DNA from: a virus | Lineage: Duplodnaviria; Caudoviricetes | Reading direction: 5' to 3' (one strand) | IMG/VR virus record: IMGVR_UViG_3300021978_000001 | Span: 1-64,000 of that record | Length of the DNA stretch: 64,000 bases | Shown here: positions 25,889-29,056 of the stretch, piece after piece | Layout of the letters: each line of letters opens with the position of its first letter | Numbering within the stretch: position 1 is the first letter of the stretch | The notes under the pieces: generated by a model | What the model saw: only the letters and a program-made list of their open reading frames with translations | Told to the model about the DNA's origin: nothing | Databases searched by the model: none | Position numbers and translations under genes: made by a program

Positions 25889-26282
25889 GGACCATCCCCG
25901 CACACGCGGGGAACATCGGACAGGGAACTTAGGCGCGCGATGGCGTCCCGGGCCATCCCCGCATACGCGGGGAACATCCACTCAGGGGATCGATGTACGC
26001 AAAACGTATCGGACCATCCCCGCACACGCGGGGAACACACCACGGCCACAGTACAAGCCGGGATCACCGCCGGACCATCCCCGCATGTGCGGGGAACACG
26101 CACTTGACGAGCGCTGTCTTGCAGAGTGATGGGAACCATCCCCGCATGCGCGAGGAATACGGTGCGGGTGTCTGGAGGTGTCCCTTGATGTCCGAACCAT
26201 CCCCGCACGTGCGGGGAACACGATGCCATCCGCACCAACGGCCCTCGCAATCTCGAACCATCCCCGCACGTGCGGGGAACAC
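25889..26282 (-). CRISPR. type I-E array 6 (7 repeats, 6 spacers)
   Basis: repeats at 25889, 25950, 26011, 26072, 26133, 26194, 26255 at 61-bp period. Confidence 0.95.
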
Positions 26283-26399
26283 TCTTCAAATGTTCAGTCC
26301 TCTAAGCCCTCGGATTCCTTACAGAATCCTCAGACCCCCTCGAACCCGTTTCCCTGTACCGAGTCAAAAGGTACCGCAACATCCCAAACCCTGTCAAGC
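26283..26399 (-). promoter_or_regulatory. leader family B with promoter (TTGACA-N13-TGCGGTA)
   Basis: about 117-bp sequence conserved at 29057 and 31212. Confidence 0.8.
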
Positions 26400-26461
26400 C
26401 CTGTTTTGCAGAATCTTTTGTTCTCCGGGTATGAGTAGGGCCTTCACGCAGGGAGACACAC

Positions 26462-27076
26462 ATGGCTTTCGATTTCCTGGGAACCTTCACGCGCACTCAA
26501 CTCGACGCACTCGACGCCTTCGTGCGCGCGCACGCGGTCAATGCAGACGCACGTATACGCGCCATCAAGGGGGAGATCGAGCGCCTGGGGTGGTTGGAGT
26601 ACGACTTCGATGAGACGGGCCAACGCGTGAGCTACCGCGTACAGCCGGAAGGGAGCGTGCTTTATCGGCATGCCCTGGCCTTCGAGTATGCGGGTGGAGA
26701 CTTGAACGCGCTCCAGATCCGGTCGAGGGGGGATTGGATTTACCAGATCAAGGGTGAGTGGGACTTGAGGGAAGGGGTGGCCTATACGGGCGGCTTGCCT
26801 TCTGAGGGGGAATATCGCGCGAGCGGGGGCTTGTACGATGATCAGGAACCAGGGACCGAGGTCGCGCGCATGAAACAGCTCGTGATCCCTTCCTTGAAGC
26901 GGCGCCTCGAAGATGCCGAGTTTCGAGTCAAGCGCACGGTGGACAGGAGTGATCAGCTCATCGATGAGCTGATCCTGATCATCAAGCGCACCACGGGGGC
27001 GGAGACCCTCGATGCCTTGCGGACCAACCTCGACTTCATGATCGCGTCGGGGGATTATCCGAGCGCGTCAGAGTGA
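26462..27076 (+). CDS. hypothetical protein, probably part of the structural module
   Basis: 204-aa ORF with GGGAG RBS, co-oriented with baseplate genes. Confidence 0.6.
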   Translation: MAFDFLGTFTRTQLDALDAFVRAHAVNADARIRAIKGEIERLGWLEYDFDETGQRVSYRVQPEGSVLYRHALAFEYAGGDLNALQIRSRGDWIYQIKGEWDLREGVAYTGGLPSEGEYRASGGLYDDQEPGTEVARMKQLVIPSLKRRLEDAEFRVKRTVDRSDQLIDELILIIKRTTGAETLDALRTNLDFMIASGDYPSASE

Positions 27077-27083
27077 GGTCAGC

Positions 27084-27860
27084 TCAAGTAGAAGTCTTTG
27101 GGGGTTCAAGACGAAACATGGGAGCTTTAATGCGCTCCGTCCTCTCAAGCTCACGCTTTGTTTGGTTGACTTCTTTTTGTAACGCGTTCCTACGCTCTTT
27201 CAGTTCTTCGATGAACTGGAGTTGTCGGCGGTTTCGTAACTTGTACAAGCGCAGTTGCCTTTCTGTCTCTGGGTCAGCCTTCACCGTATTGCGCAGCTCT
27301 TCCTTGAGCTTGTCAATGACCACACGAAGTCTCTGCACCTCCACTTCCAGGCGTTCTTCTCGGCTCTTGGTCGCCTTTGGCTTTGGTTTTTGGTAAGGCG
27401 CAGGCTCGACCGCAATGCGAGGTGTCTCGAATAACGACAAGATCTGAACCAATGAAACCCCATGATGGATCAAGCCTTCGCGCAAGAGCACGTCTTTTAA
27501 CTCCTCGGGGTCCGTGTGCTGCACTTCGGCGTAAGCCTGGAAAAGTTGATCGGTGTCAATACAATCACGATAATCCCGGACCGCACGTTGTGTCCACGCG
27601 CGCACCAGTTCCGCAACGACTTCTTCGTACTTGTACGACGTCCACGTGTATAACTTTCCGTAGAGTGTTTCGCCTCTCCAAAGTCGAGAGTCTGCTTCAT
27701 ATGAGAGGCTCATGAGAGGAGGCGCCTCTTTCGTTCCATCTTTGACACTACAGTAGAATACGAGATGTTCCGTAGTGACTTTGCTCTTCACTTGAACGAT
27801 GGGAGGGAACCTCTTTAGGAGGTATGCCTCGACTAGAATTTCTAATGTATCAGTAGTCAT
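27084..27860 (-). CDS. hypothetical protein with C-terminal coiled coil
   Basis: 258 aa, visibly more AT-rich than its flanks. Confidence 0.6.
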   Translation of the reverse strand: MTTDTLEILVEAYLLKRFPPIVQVKSKVTTEHLVFYCSVKDGTKEAPPLMSLSYEADSRLWRGETLYGKLYTWTSYKYEEVVAELVRAWTQRAVRDYRDCIDTDQLFQAYAEVQHTDPEELKDVLLREGLIHHGVSLVQILSLFETPRIAVEPAPYQKPKPKATKSREERLEVEVQRLRVVIDKLKEELRNTVKADPETERQLRLYKLRNRRQLQFIEELKERRNALQKEVNQTKRELERTERIKAPMFRLEPPKTST

Positions 27861-27869
27861 CGGATTTCC

Positions 27870-28229
27870 TCAGCTCAACGGCGCCTTGCGCTTCGAGAGG
27901 TCTTCCACGTACTCGAAGCATAGACCCGCGCGGTGACAGACACCCCAATGCCAGCCTTGTGCCTTGGCTTCCTCCGAGATCTCCTCATAGAGATCGGGGT
28001 ACCAGTTCGAGAACCTGCCCAACGCGACATCATCGAAGATGCACAACGTGGTGAACTCGCCTTTGGAATCCGGGCCGCGCGCGTCGGATATGCCTTGAGC
28101 GTAGATGTACCCAGGTTCGGGCGAGGGGAAGTTGATGTACTCCACCACCTGACGTGGCTCTGCGGTGGTGATTTTGGCGACCACGAAAAGCCCGTCACGT
28201 ATCGGGAGCCTGTGGGGGATGAATTTCAT
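27870..28229 (-). CDS. hypothetical protein
   Basis: MKFIPHRLP start after AAGAGAG. Confidence 0.55.
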   Translation of the reverse strand: MKFIPHRLPIRDGLFVVAKITTAEPRQVVEYINFPSPEPGYIYAQGISDARGPDSKGEFTTLCIFDDVALGRFSNWYPDLYEEISEEAKAQGWHWGVCHRAGLCFEYVEDLSKRKAPLS

Positions 28230-28257
28230 AACACTCTCTTGAAGGGGTTGTTGTGTT

Positions 28258-28575
28258 TCACTCAGGTGCCCAGCCAAAGAAGGCATACTCGCCATCGGCA
28301 TCTTTGGTAGGTTCTTTCACGCAGACGCAACCGCAAGGCCCCCATTTGTCTGGGTGTTCGTCATAGAACGTGTCGATGAAGGCGTCGAGATCATCGGGTT
28401 TGGGGTATTCGCGGAAACCGTTCACGGCGCGAATATCGCCCGTATAGGATGAGCAGTAGTCCTCTTCCTCGTCTTCGTATCCCCAATCATCAGCCTCCGC
28501 TTCGTCCTTCGCGTTGTAAAAGGCTTCTTGTGCCGTTTTCCCTTGCCCGTAATTCACAAATGTTGTTGCACCCAT
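28258..28575 (-). CDS. small acidic phage early protein
   Basis: MGATTF...GKTAQEAF; GAGAGGGA RBS and early promoter upstream. Confidence 0.65.
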   Translation of the reverse strand: MGATTFVNYGQGKTAQEAFYNAKDEAEADDWGYEDEEEDYCSSYTGDIRAVNGFREYPKPDDLDAFIDTFYDEHPDKWGPCGCVCVKEPTKDADGEYAFFGWAPE

Positions 28576-28627
28576 GATGTCCCTCTCGTGTCGTGTCAGT
28601 CTGTGTCGTTTTTCGTACACCTACTGT

Positions 28628-28652
28628 TACCACAAGGGGTAAGGGGCGTAAA
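28628..28652 (-). promoter_or_regulatory. early promoter TTTACG-N12-TGTGGTA
   Basis: recurring motif, directly after the array 7 trailer. Confidence 0.7.
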
Positions 28653-28659
28653 CATTTTT

Positions 28660-29056
28660 CTTCCATTCCCACAAGGGTGGGAAATACGAACTAGCGAGCC
28701 TTAGCCCCGTCGCCAGTGCCGGACCATCCCCACTTGTGTGGGGAACACATACACGCACGGTCTGCGGGTCGTAAGAGGTGACCGGACCATCCCCGCGTGC
28801 GCGGGGAACACAGAATGCCTCCTGCTATCGCACCAATGACGAACGGACCATCCCCACACAAGTGGGGAACATCGAACAGAGAGCTTGGGCGCGCGATGGC
28901 GTCCCGGACCATCCCCGCGTGTGCGGGGAACATAGTTCTTGCGTTGCTTGGTCTGCACCTCGGATCGAACCATCCCCGCATACGCGGGGAACACTGTGGC
29001 GGTCATCGCAAGTTGTGCGTCGGTGCCAGGACCATCCCCGCGCATGCGGGGAACAC
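28660..29056 (-). CRISPR. type I-E array 7 (7 repeats, 6 spacers)
   Basis: repeats at 28660, 28721, 28784, 28845, 28906, 28967, 29029. Confidence 0.95.

What the first reader, a model, noticed from the sequence alone, without database searches (positions are those of the whole stretch)
25889..29056. First spacer base differs between arrays: signature of more than one acquisition machinery
On the crRNA strand the base right after the 28-bp repeat is G in 10 of 12 spacers of arrays 6 and 7, but C or T in 23 of 27 spacers of arrays 1-4 and 8, and never A (manual count). In E. coli I-E this base is the last PAM nucleotide retained by Cas1-Cas2 (established). With no cas1/cas2 in the window, this suggests spacers were added by at least two host adaptation complexes with different PAMs (NNG versus NNY), i.e. 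a record of host range, and that the phage Cas8e tolerates both. The split does not simply follow leader family, since array 8 has leader B.
Basis: partly seen in the sequence, partly recalled or inferred. Interest (0 to 1): 0.72.

Follow-up and report, generated by a model that had tools for sequence, protein, structure and literature searches.

The report
Two PAM signatures in phage CRISPR arrays
A 437-kb marine phage with its own CRISPR weapon but no spacer-installing genes has two kinds of small CRISPR array: in one kind new spacers nearly always start with G, in the other with C or T, which suggests borrowed machinery of two different specificities filled them.

Summary

It extends to the whole 437-kb phage genome. 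It also recurs in independently acquired spacers of four sister strains. Over 91 non-redundant spacer families, loci A6/A7/A405/A408 give G29 C4 T3. Loci A1-A4/A110 give C22 T7 G8 (p=5e-7). A is never seen (p=1e-9).

The genome has no cas1, cas2 or cas4. Even so, sister strains show leader-end spacer turnover, so spacers are installed in trans.

Bacterial arrays with the same repeat are all-G, all-C or mixed. In C-type arrays the first base matched the target in 3 of 3 protospacers. Single-cas1 bacteria mix G and C at random within one array, so a mixture alone proves nothing. The phage's sorting by array, together with a GC difference between the classes (0.55 vs 0.61), is the real signal.

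Best reading (about 50%): two adaptation specificities, AAG-like and AAC/AAT-like. No protospacer of the phage's own spacers was found, so its PAMs remain inferred. The host-range and Cas8e-tolerance claims are untested. Other notes of this scan cover this genome's arrays; none shown to me covers this split.

The parts
13103..13616 (-). Array 1: 9 repeats, 8 spacers, first bases CCCTCCTC. Class A (C/T-type).
13617..13650 (-). Short leader A (...GTGACAGGTTGTCTCAGA) between the cas8e-cas11 stop codon and array 1.
13651..15828 (-). cas8e fused to cas11 (cse2).
   Evidence: Pfam CRISPR_Cse1 plus CRISPR_Cse2
15832..16605 (-). cas5e.
   Evidence: Pfam Cas_Cas5d
16638..17018 (-). Array 2: first bases CCCCG, then a truncated T spacer. 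Class A, leader A.
17051..17776 (-). cas6e.
   Evidence: Pfam CRISPR_assoc
17789..18125 (-). Array 3: first bases TGTC, then G. Class A, leader A variant (...GTGGCACAGG).
18181..19671 (-). cas7.
   Evidence: Pfam Cas_CT1975
19718..22339 (-). cas3 (HD nuclease plus helicase).
   Evidence: Pfam Cas3_HD, DEAD, Cas3-like_C_2
23067..23279 (-). Array 4: first bases CCT, plus a trailer unit starting with G. Class A, leader A at 23280-23400.
23402..23491 (-). Array remnant 5: 2 repeats, one spacer starting with G.
25538..25628 (-). Array remnant 5b: 2 repeats, one spacer starting with G.
25889..26282 (-). Array 6: first bases GGCGGG. Class B (G-type).
26283..26399 (-). Leader B copy, about 117 nt, ending ...CTGAACATTTGAAGA.
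   Evidence: (family D4)
28660..29056 (-). Array 7: first bases TGGGGG. Class B. Spacer 3 is a diverged copy of array 6 spacer 6.
29057..29173 (-). Leader B copy.
30920..31211 (-). Array 8: first bases CTC, then C. C/T-type although it has leader B here. In sister strain X2 the same locus has a different short leader and is also C-type.
31212..31328 (-). Leader B copy.

Best explanation
The first 'spacer' base is the PAM-proximal nucleotide that type I-E Cas1-Cas2 carries in with each new spacer (position 29 of the E. coli repeat). The phage has a complete I-E interference module but no adaptation genes, so its roughly 13 mini-arrays are extended in trans by bacterial Cas1-Cas2 during infection.

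The arrays fall into two stable classes. Class B (arrays 6 and 7, plus those at 405 kb and 408 kb; long leader B) takes about 80% G, like AAG-type I-E systems. Class A (arrays 1-4 and the one at 110 kb; short leader A; array 8 behaves the same) takes about 60% C, 20% T and 20% G, like AAC/AAT-type I-E systems.

The most likely cause is that two adaptation specificities have fed the two classes. These could sit in different hosts, or be two systems in one host.

Shown:
- The split exists and recurs in sister strains.
- Adaptation genes are absent from the genome.
- Spacers turn over at the leader end between sister strains.
- G-type, C-type and mixed I-E systems with this repeat all exist.

Inferred:
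- The base is PAM-derived in this phage.
- Acquisition is done by host enzymes.
- Two enzymes rather than one are involved.
- What ties each array to one specificity (the leader is the candidate).
For: 1. The split is real and locus-stable. Over 91 non-redundant spacer families from G000 plus four sister strains, class B has G29 C4 T3 and class A has C22 T7 G8 (Fisher p=5e-7). In sister-only spacers the split is 12/4 against 3/9 (p=0.02). All four B loci are at least 0.69 G and all five A loci at most 0.50 G, which has 1 chance in 126.

2. Sister strains keep trailer-end spacers but have different leader-end spacers at the same loci. This is polarised acquisition in a lineage without cas1/cas2/cas4 (absence).

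3. Exceptions are isolated inside arrays. None of the 7 exceptions in class B is A, the expected transition product of G. This fits stochastic PAM choice, as in E. coli where the base is not propagated (PMC3338789).

4. Each class resembles a natural single-system profile: class A resembles Gordonia L107 (C61 G8 T7 A2), class B resembles G-type arrays. In C-type bacteria the first base matched the phage target in 3 of 3 protospacers. I-E PAMs AAG, AAC, AAT and AAN are catalogued (PMC8482600).

5. In bacteria with mixed arrays, G and non-G are randomly interspersed (runs z between -1.5 and 1.6). The phage instead sorts them by array.

6. A second property separates the classes. Spacer GC without base 1 is 0.554 against 0.605 (p=0.008). 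The direction is the same in G000 and in sisters, and GC follows array class, not first base. This suggests different source pools.

7. In strain X2 two alleles of one coding target sit in the same register. The G-allele is in array 7 and the C-allele in array 8. Their differences fall on codon third and first positions.

8. Precedent: Sulfolobales Cas1, leader, repeat and PAM co-vary, and one cell holds CCN and TCN array sets (PMC4390879).
Against: - No protospacer of any phage spacer was found, so the PAM of neither class is seen directly.
- Single type I-E loci can give G/C/T mixtures. The phage's pooled distribution (G37 C34 T9 A0) is indistinguishable from Kiritimatiellia L005 (p=0.9), so one relaxed enzyme is not excluded.
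- The obvious cis determinant fails once. Array 8 has a leader B identical over its last 24 nt to that of the G-type array at 408 kb, yet its three own spacers start C, T, C.
- The repeat-proximal motif of leader A (ACAAGATGT) recurs next to a G-type metagenomic array (L144) and a mixed Kiritimatiellia array (L005), not next to C-type ones.
- No host is identified. The phage Cas proteins are at most 37% identical to any bacterial homologue found.
- The GC difference is modest.
Confidence: 0.5

Rival explanations
1. One relaxed host adaptation module (any base but A at -1, as in Corynebacterium antarcticum, Kiritimatiellia L005 or the Myxococcales locus L145) supplies all spacers. An unknown array-specific factor then skews which prespacers are integrated or kept. 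Candidates are leader geometry, IHF dependence, timing of expression, or selection.
For: - Single-cas1 genomes and single loci give G/C/T mixtures with almost no A in one array.
- The phage's pooled first-base distribution equals that of L005.
- Leader A's junction motif is shared with L005.
- The nearest bacterial Cas7, at only 28% identity, comes from the mixed-type Myxococcales locus.
- The array 8 exception shows that the leader alone does not dictate the class.
Against: - No known mechanism makes the -1 choice array-specific.
- In the relaxed bacterial arrays G and C are randomly interspersed with no autocorrelation, so resident units do not bias incoming ones.
- The classes also differ in spacer GC, which a pure integration bias would not predict.
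Confidence: 0.2
2. Inheritance rather than ongoing borrowing. The two array families were captured ready-loaded from two kinds of bacterial array (G-type and C-type). They have since diversified mainly by loss, duplication and homologous exchange between co-infecting sister phages. The signature would then record array donors, not current host range.
For: - Arrays 6 and 7 share a diverged spacer and a leader, so arrays do duplicate.
- Internal spacers are differentially lost between strains, and leaders are swapped at array 8.
- Class follows locus, not leader, at array 8.
Against: - Differences between strains are polarised: the trailer is conserved and the leader end is unique. Most leader-end spacers are unique to one strain, which would need very long ancestral arrays.
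- No bacterial leader resembling leader B was found.
- Homologous spacers in different strains differ at codon third and first positions, which points to repeated capture from target alleles rather than drift of inherited copies.
Confidence: 0.15
3. The base is not target-derived here. The true repeat is 29 nt and each array copies its own 29th base when the repeat is duplicated; exceptions are later point mutations.
For: - It would explain array specificity with no further assumption.
- Arrays 2 and 110k show a single switch along the array.
Against: - At least seven exceptions are isolated, not propagated towards the leader.
- Exceptions in the G class are C or T and never the transition product A. 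A is absent from all 80 first bases.
- In E. coli the base is not propagated.
- In C-type relatives the base matched the target in 3 of 3 cases.
- An allele pair differs at base 1 on a codon wobble position.
Confidence: 0.05
4. Chance or a counting artefact, such as wrong strand, wrong repeat boundary, or non-independent duplicated spacers.
For: - Arrays are small.
- One spacer pair is shared between arrays 6 and 7.
Against: - Strand and boundary are fixed by the I-E repeat consensus, the 61-nt period, the leaders, the degenerate trailer repeats and the cas gene strand.
- After removing redundancy p=5e-7, and the split is replicated in sister-only spacers.
Confidence: 0.01

Closest known systems
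PAM-derived last repeat nucleotide in E. coli type I-E adaptation (Swarts et al. 2012, PMC3338789)
   Same: Both have the 61-nt unit and the same repeat architecture. The variable base sits directly after the conserved 28 nt. Deviant bases appear singly and are not propagated to newer units.
   Different: In E. coli one Cas1-Cas2 gives one dominant base (G) in all arrays of the cell. Here two dominant bases are sorted by array, the genome has no Cas1-Cas2, and the link to the target is not shown for the phage's own spacers.
CRISPR-Cas systems of huge phages that lack Cas1, Cas2 and Cas4 and have compact arrays (Al-Shayeb et al. 2020, PMC7162821)
   Same: Both are phages over 200 kb with an interference module, no adaptation genes, and arrays of about six repeats. 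Use of host proteins is assumed.
   Different: That paper, in the passages read, does not report leader-end turnover between sister phages or array-specific PAM signatures. This phage has about 13 scattered I-E arrays with two leader families.
Sulfolobales type I-A subfamilies in which Cas1, leader, repeat and PAM (CCN, TCN, GTN) co-vary, and one cell holds two sets of arrays (Garrett et al. 2015, PMC4390879)
   Same: Different arrays in one genome carry different PAM signatures because different adaptation modules serve them. Leaders differ between the sets.
   Different: In Sulfolobales the repeats differ between sets and both adaptation modules are encoded in the same genome. Here all arrays share one repeat, no module is encoded, and the leader-class link has one exception (array 8).
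Catalogue of type I-E PAM variants AAG, AAC, AAT, AAN, AC (Vink et al. 2021, PMC8482600)
   Same: It shows that the -1 position differs between I-E systems, and that the -1 PAM base often equals the last repeat base.
   Different: The catalogue assigns one PAM per repeat cluster. Here one repeat carries two signatures within one genome. My survey also finds the same repeat core with G-type, C-type and mixed arrays in bacteria.
Vibrio phage ICP1 type I-F system (Seed et al. 2013, cited in PMC7162821)
   Same: A phage-borne type I CRISPR-Cas system that gains spacers.
   Different: By my recollection ICP1 encodes its own adaptation genes; I did not check this here. This phage encodes none.

Membership tests
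Type I-E CRISPR-Cas (arrays and interference module) | cas3, cas8e, cas11, cas7, cas5e and cas6e are present. | tested here: met
   Pfam hits over the curated cut-offs for all six; cas8e and cas11 are fused.
Type I-E CRISPR-Cas (arrays and interference module) | Repeat of 28-29 nt with a GC stem-loop followed by an 8-nt handle, and a 61-nt repeat-spacer period. | tested here: met
   The repeat aligns with the E. coli consensus GWGTTCCCCGCG..GCGGGGAT..ACCG quoted in PMC3338789. Spacing is 61 nt throughout.
Type I-E CRISPR-Cas (arrays and interference module) | cas1 and cas2 adaptation genes are present. | tested here: not met
   PF01867, TIGR03638, PF09707 and PF09827 find nothing in the complete 437-kb record. 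tblastx with bacterial cas1-cas2 gave no convincing match outside the arrays.
PAM-derived 29th base (E. coli-type adaptation) | The base equals the -1 base of the protospacer. | tested here: inconclusive
   No protospacer was found for the phage spacers. In bacterial C-type arrays of the same repeat family it matched in 3 of 3 cases.
PAM-derived 29th base (E. coli-type adaptation) | A deviant base is not propagated to later units. | tested here: met
   Isolated exceptions occur in arrays 1, 3, 6 and 408k and in sister copies of array 7.
Huge-phage CRISPR systems without adaptation genes (Al-Shayeb 2020) | Phage genome over 200 kb, no cas1/cas2/cas4, compact arrays. | tested here: met
   The record is 437,490 bp with terminal repeats and baseplate and fibre genes. 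Arrays have 2-9 repeats. The only Cas4-like hit is a sub-threshold PD-(D/E)XK-type match at 259 kb.
Multi-module adaptation with leader-PAM coupling (Sulfolobales type) | Leader family predicts the PAM signature. | tested here: inconclusive
   Nine of ten G000 arrays fit (A110 is 2G/2C). For leader B against leader A, G versus non-G is 16/6 against 4/19, p=3e-4. Array 8 has leader B but C/T-type spacers; at the same locus strain X2 has a different leader.
Multi-module adaptation with leader-PAM coupling (Sulfolobales type) | Two distinct Cas1 families are present. | not testable with these tools
   The phage encodes none and the host is unknown.

The most novel reading that the evidence does not exclude
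The phage keeps two families of CRISPR arrays, each matched to a different bacterial adaptation machine (AAG-type and AAC/AAT-type). It can therefore have its immune memory written in two kinds of host cell, or by two systems of one host. The first base of each spacer would then be a readable record of where that spacer was acquired. Host range and infection history of an uncultured giant phage could be read from its own arrays.
Probability: 0.3. Interest if true: 0.8.

Novelty: new variant of a known kind. Interest (0 to 1): 0.62.

Why it matters
Phage-borne CRISPR systems without Cas1-Cas2 are widely assumed to borrow host enzymes, but I found no sequence evidence for that assumption in the papers I read. 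This locus gives two pieces of such evidence.

First, closely related phages have replaced their leader-end spacers at the same loci. Second, the retained PAM base sorts into two array classes.

If the two classes reflect two adaptation machines, the arrays are a built-in log of which machinery, and perhaps which host, wrote each memory. It also gives a testable design: phage leader A and leader B mini-arrays offered to G-type and C-type Cas1-Cas2.

The side result may be useful for PAM prediction. One repeat family serves G-type, C-type and mixed-specificity I-E systems, so the repeat alone does not predict the -1 PAM base.

Tried and rejected
**Protospacer hunts, all negative**
- All 54 G000 spacers against the phage's own genome with arrays masked: only 12-20-nt chance hits.
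- Sister spacers against G000.
- Both array regions by blastn against 50,697 phage records: only repeat-to-repeat hits in Streptomyces phages.
- Six IMG/VR pattern scans, with conserved spacer families and leader-proximal spacers, leaving the I-E flipped positions free.
- 401 sampled Verrucomicrobiota genomes: only array-to-array matches.
- A look-up in this scan's index.

**Host identification**
- 1,840 spacers from bacterial arrays with the same repeat do not hit the phage.
- No bacterial leader resembles leader B.
- Cas proteins are too diverged to name a donor: best are Cas5 at 37% (Lentisphaerae) and Cas7 at 28% (Myxococcales).

**Searches for sister phages that found none**
- The search for related loci with Cas8e and the strict repeat in IMG/VR found no sister phages.
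- The JGI metagenome scan with AGA plus repeat found only unrelated bacterial arrays.

**Other points**
- A last-base bias (A/C in class A) seen in G000 did not replicate in sisters and is dropped.
- Flipped spacer orientation was considered. It predicts C at the last base and a random first base, which is not seen.
- Slipped acquisition from AAG was considered. Slipping upstream predicts A at the first base, and A is never seen.
- L123 (ENA scaffold, 429 kb) is the same phage at 99.99% identity, so it is not independent.
- The habitat labels of the runs (hydrothermal vent, marine) come. Only X2-X5 were laid.
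Full report
**What the window is.** The window is the first 64 kb of a 437,490-bp IMG/VR virus record with terminal repeats, rated complete. It carries baseplate J and fibre genes. On the minus strand it has a type I-E interference module: cas3, cas7, cas6e, cas5e and a cas8e-cas11 fusion. CRISPR arrays lie between these genes. The source run is a hydrothermal-vent metagenome, and close relatives occur in marine and seawater runs.

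**Anatomy of the arrays.** The repeat on the minus strand is GTGTTCCCCGC-loop-GCGGGGATGGTCC, 28 nt, with 33-nt spacers and a 61-nt period. This is the E. coli I-E unit with the 29th base counted as spacer (consensus quoted). Leaders lie at the higher-coordinate end and degenerate repeats at the other end. The window holds arrays at 13103, 16638, 17789, 23067, 25889, 28660 and 30920, plus two remnants. The rest of the genome adds arrays at 110 kb, 405 kb and 408 kb and several lone repeats.

There are two leader families. Leader A is a short motif...GTGACAAGATGTCTCAGA, found at arrays 1, 2 and 4 and the 110-kb array, with a variant at array 3. Leader B is a conserved element of about 117 nt ending CTGAACATTTGAAGA, found at arrays 6, 7 and 8 and the 405-kb and 408-kb arrays.

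**Checking the observation.** Heterogeneity among the ten arrays of the genome has permutation p=3e-4. Leader B against leader A gives 16/6 against 4/19 for G versus non-G, p=3e-4. Only position 1 differs between the classes. Absence of A in 80 first bases has p=1e-9, given 22.8% A elsewhere in the spacers.

**No adaptation genes.** Searches of the whole record with PF01867, TIGR03638, PF09707 and PF09827 find nothing. tblastx with bacterial cas1-cas2 gave no convincing match outside the arrays. Only a sub-threshold Cas4-like nuclease match exists, at 259 kb.

**Sister strains.** L123 is the same phage and adds nothing. Real sisters, at 85-97% nucleotide identity, were reached through 90% protein clusters and exact look-ups. 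Laying the contigs of four marine runs confirmed them.

At the same loci the sisters keep the trailer-end spacers but carry different leader-end spacers. This is the polarised pattern of active acquisition. Internal spacers are also lost differentially. The new spacers obey the same rule:
- Strain X2, array 6: four new spacers, all G.
- Array 7 in X2 and in SRR14610206: mostly G.
- Arrays 2, 3 and 4 in SRR25654121 and SRR14610206: mostly C/T.

Pooled without redundancy (91 families):
- Loci A6, A7, A405, A408: G29 C4 T3.
- Loci A1-A4 and A110: C22 T7 G8.
- A8: C8 T1 G3.

The class difference has p=5e-7, and sister-only spacers give p=0.02. At locus level the four B loci (at least 0.69 G) and the five A loci (at most 0.50 G) do not overlap.

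**What the base means.** In E. coli the last repeat nucleotide comes from the PAM, and a deviant base is not propagated to later units.

I surveyed bacterial arrays with the same repeat core:
- Many are all-G: Akkermansia, Terriglobia, Deinococcus, Verrucomicrobiales.
- Many are all-C or mostly C: Streptomyces, Nonomuraea, Gordonia.
- Some are mixed within a single array: Kiritimatiellia, Corynebacterium, Actinosynnema.

For C-type arrays three protospacers were found in cultured phages, and the first base C matched the target each time. The flanks were GAA|C, GTA|C and AAG|C. The published catalogue lists I-E PAMs AAG, AAC, AAT, AAN and AC. G-type and C/T-type I-E adaptation specificities on one repeat family are therefore real.

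**A caution.** Corynebacterium antarcticum has a single cas1 and an array with G27 C30 T14 A2. A Myxococcales locus with one cas1-cas2 has G46 C39 T3 A2. In all such arrays G and non-G are randomly interspersed. The pooled phage distribution matches Kiritimatiellia L005.

A mixture without A is therefore no evidence for two machineries. What needs explaining is the sorting by array, and none of the seven mixed or mostly-C bacterial arrays tested for runs shows clustering.

**Further clues.**
- *Exceptions.* Exceptions within arrays are isolated. In the G class they are C or T, never A. This argues against a templated 29th base followed by mutation.
- *GC content.* Spacer GC without base 1 differs between classes: 0.554 against 0.605, p=0.008. 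The direction is the same in G000 and in sisters. GC follows array class rather than first base, and A8 groups with class A. This suggests different source pools.
- *Codon pattern.* Two spacer families shared between strains or arrays vary at positions congruent to 1 and 0 modulo 3 and never 2 (14 sites). That is the third- and first-codon-position pattern of a coding target read on the opposite strand. These are therefore repeated captures of target alleles, not drift.
- *Allele pair.* In one such pair, within strain X2, the allele starting with G sits in array 7 and the allele starting with C in array 8, in the same register.

**The leader question.** Leader family predicts class for nine of ten arrays of G000. 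Array 8 has a leader B identical over its last 24 nt to that of the G-type array at 408 kb, yet its own spacers start C, T, C. In strain X2 the same locus has a different, short leader directly after a small gene, and is also C-type. A leader replacement after the spacers were acquired is therefore possible but not shown.

Leader A's junction motif ACAAGATGT also stands next to the first repeat of a mixed Kiritimatiellia array and a G-type metagenomic array. This does not fit a simple 'leader A equals C-type enzyme' rule.

The best reading, at about 0.5, is that two adaptation specificities (AAG-like and AAC/AAT-like), acting in trans, have written the two array classes. What ties an array to a class is unresolved.

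The rivals are:
- One relaxed enzyme plus an unknown array-specific bias (0.2).
- Pre-loaded arrays diversified by exchange (0.15).
- A templated 29th base (0.05).

'Record of host range' and 'Cas8e tolerates both' remain untested. All attempts to recover protospacers of the phage's own spacers failed, so the PAMs themselves are inferred.

Noticed in passing
window 17789-17816 and 30920-30947; also G000 408209-408236: The last, degenerate repeat of an array runs straight into a Shine-Dalgarno sequence and ATG of the next gene on the same strand (cas6e after array 3; a small gene after array 8). These genes are therefore probably co-transcribed with the arrays and cut free by Cas6e.
   Followed up: no
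window 27084-27860 (minus strand): This 258-aa gene between arrays 6 and 7 is missing from sister strains in three marine runs: contigs join 27087 to 27890. It has no homologue in the 5.8-billion-protein search, so it is a strain-specific insertion next to the arrays.
   Followed up: partly
L126:9428-9477 versus window 31212-31356: At the array 8 locus, strain X2 has a 95-aa gene and a roughly 50-nt leader with a promoter-like TTGACG...TAAGCT. G000 has a leader B copy there instead. Whole leaders are exchanged between strains while the array stays.
   Followed up: partly
window 28934-28966 (array 7 spacer 2) with L130 and L131; L126 array 8 spacer 1 with L130 array 7 spacer 4: Spacers that are homologous between strains or arrays differ at codon third and first positions of an unseen coding target. 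The same protospacer site has been captured repeatedly from diverged target alleles.
   Followed up: partly
L145 (Myxococcales MAG, GCA_016792845.1) 15439-21000; L101 (Corynebacterium antarcticum): Canonical type I-E loci with one cas1-cas2 whose single array has G and C (and T in L101) at the PAM-derived position in random order. These adaptation modules have a relaxed -1 PAM base on the same repeat family that is strictly G or strictly C elsewhere.
   Followed up: partly
Streptomyces phages Eklok, AxeJC, Piccadilly, Ignacio and relatives, about 34.3-35.5 kb of each record (hits H1-H32): A group of cultured 37-38-kb Streptomyces phages carries a repeat-spacer-repeat-sized stretch resembling this I-E repeat in an unannotated region. 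This may be a mini-array or solitary repeat units.
   Followed up: no
L142 (metagenome contig Ga0233425_10014494) 700-3343: A 31-repeat G-type I-E array whose leader starts only about 2 kb after a cas7 match. That leaves room for cas5 and cas6e but apparently not for cas1-cas2 between them and the array.
   Followed up: no
window 38375-39514 (plus strand): A 379-aa protein with a RelA/SpoT nucleotidyltransferase domain sits directly after a Gp80-like fibre gene in the baseplate and fibre block.
   Followed up: no
G000 259094-259435 (locus L147): A weak, sub-threshold Cas4-like (PD-(D/E)XK) match inside a 325-aa open frame, far from any array. It is probably an ordinary phage exonuclease.
   Followed up: no
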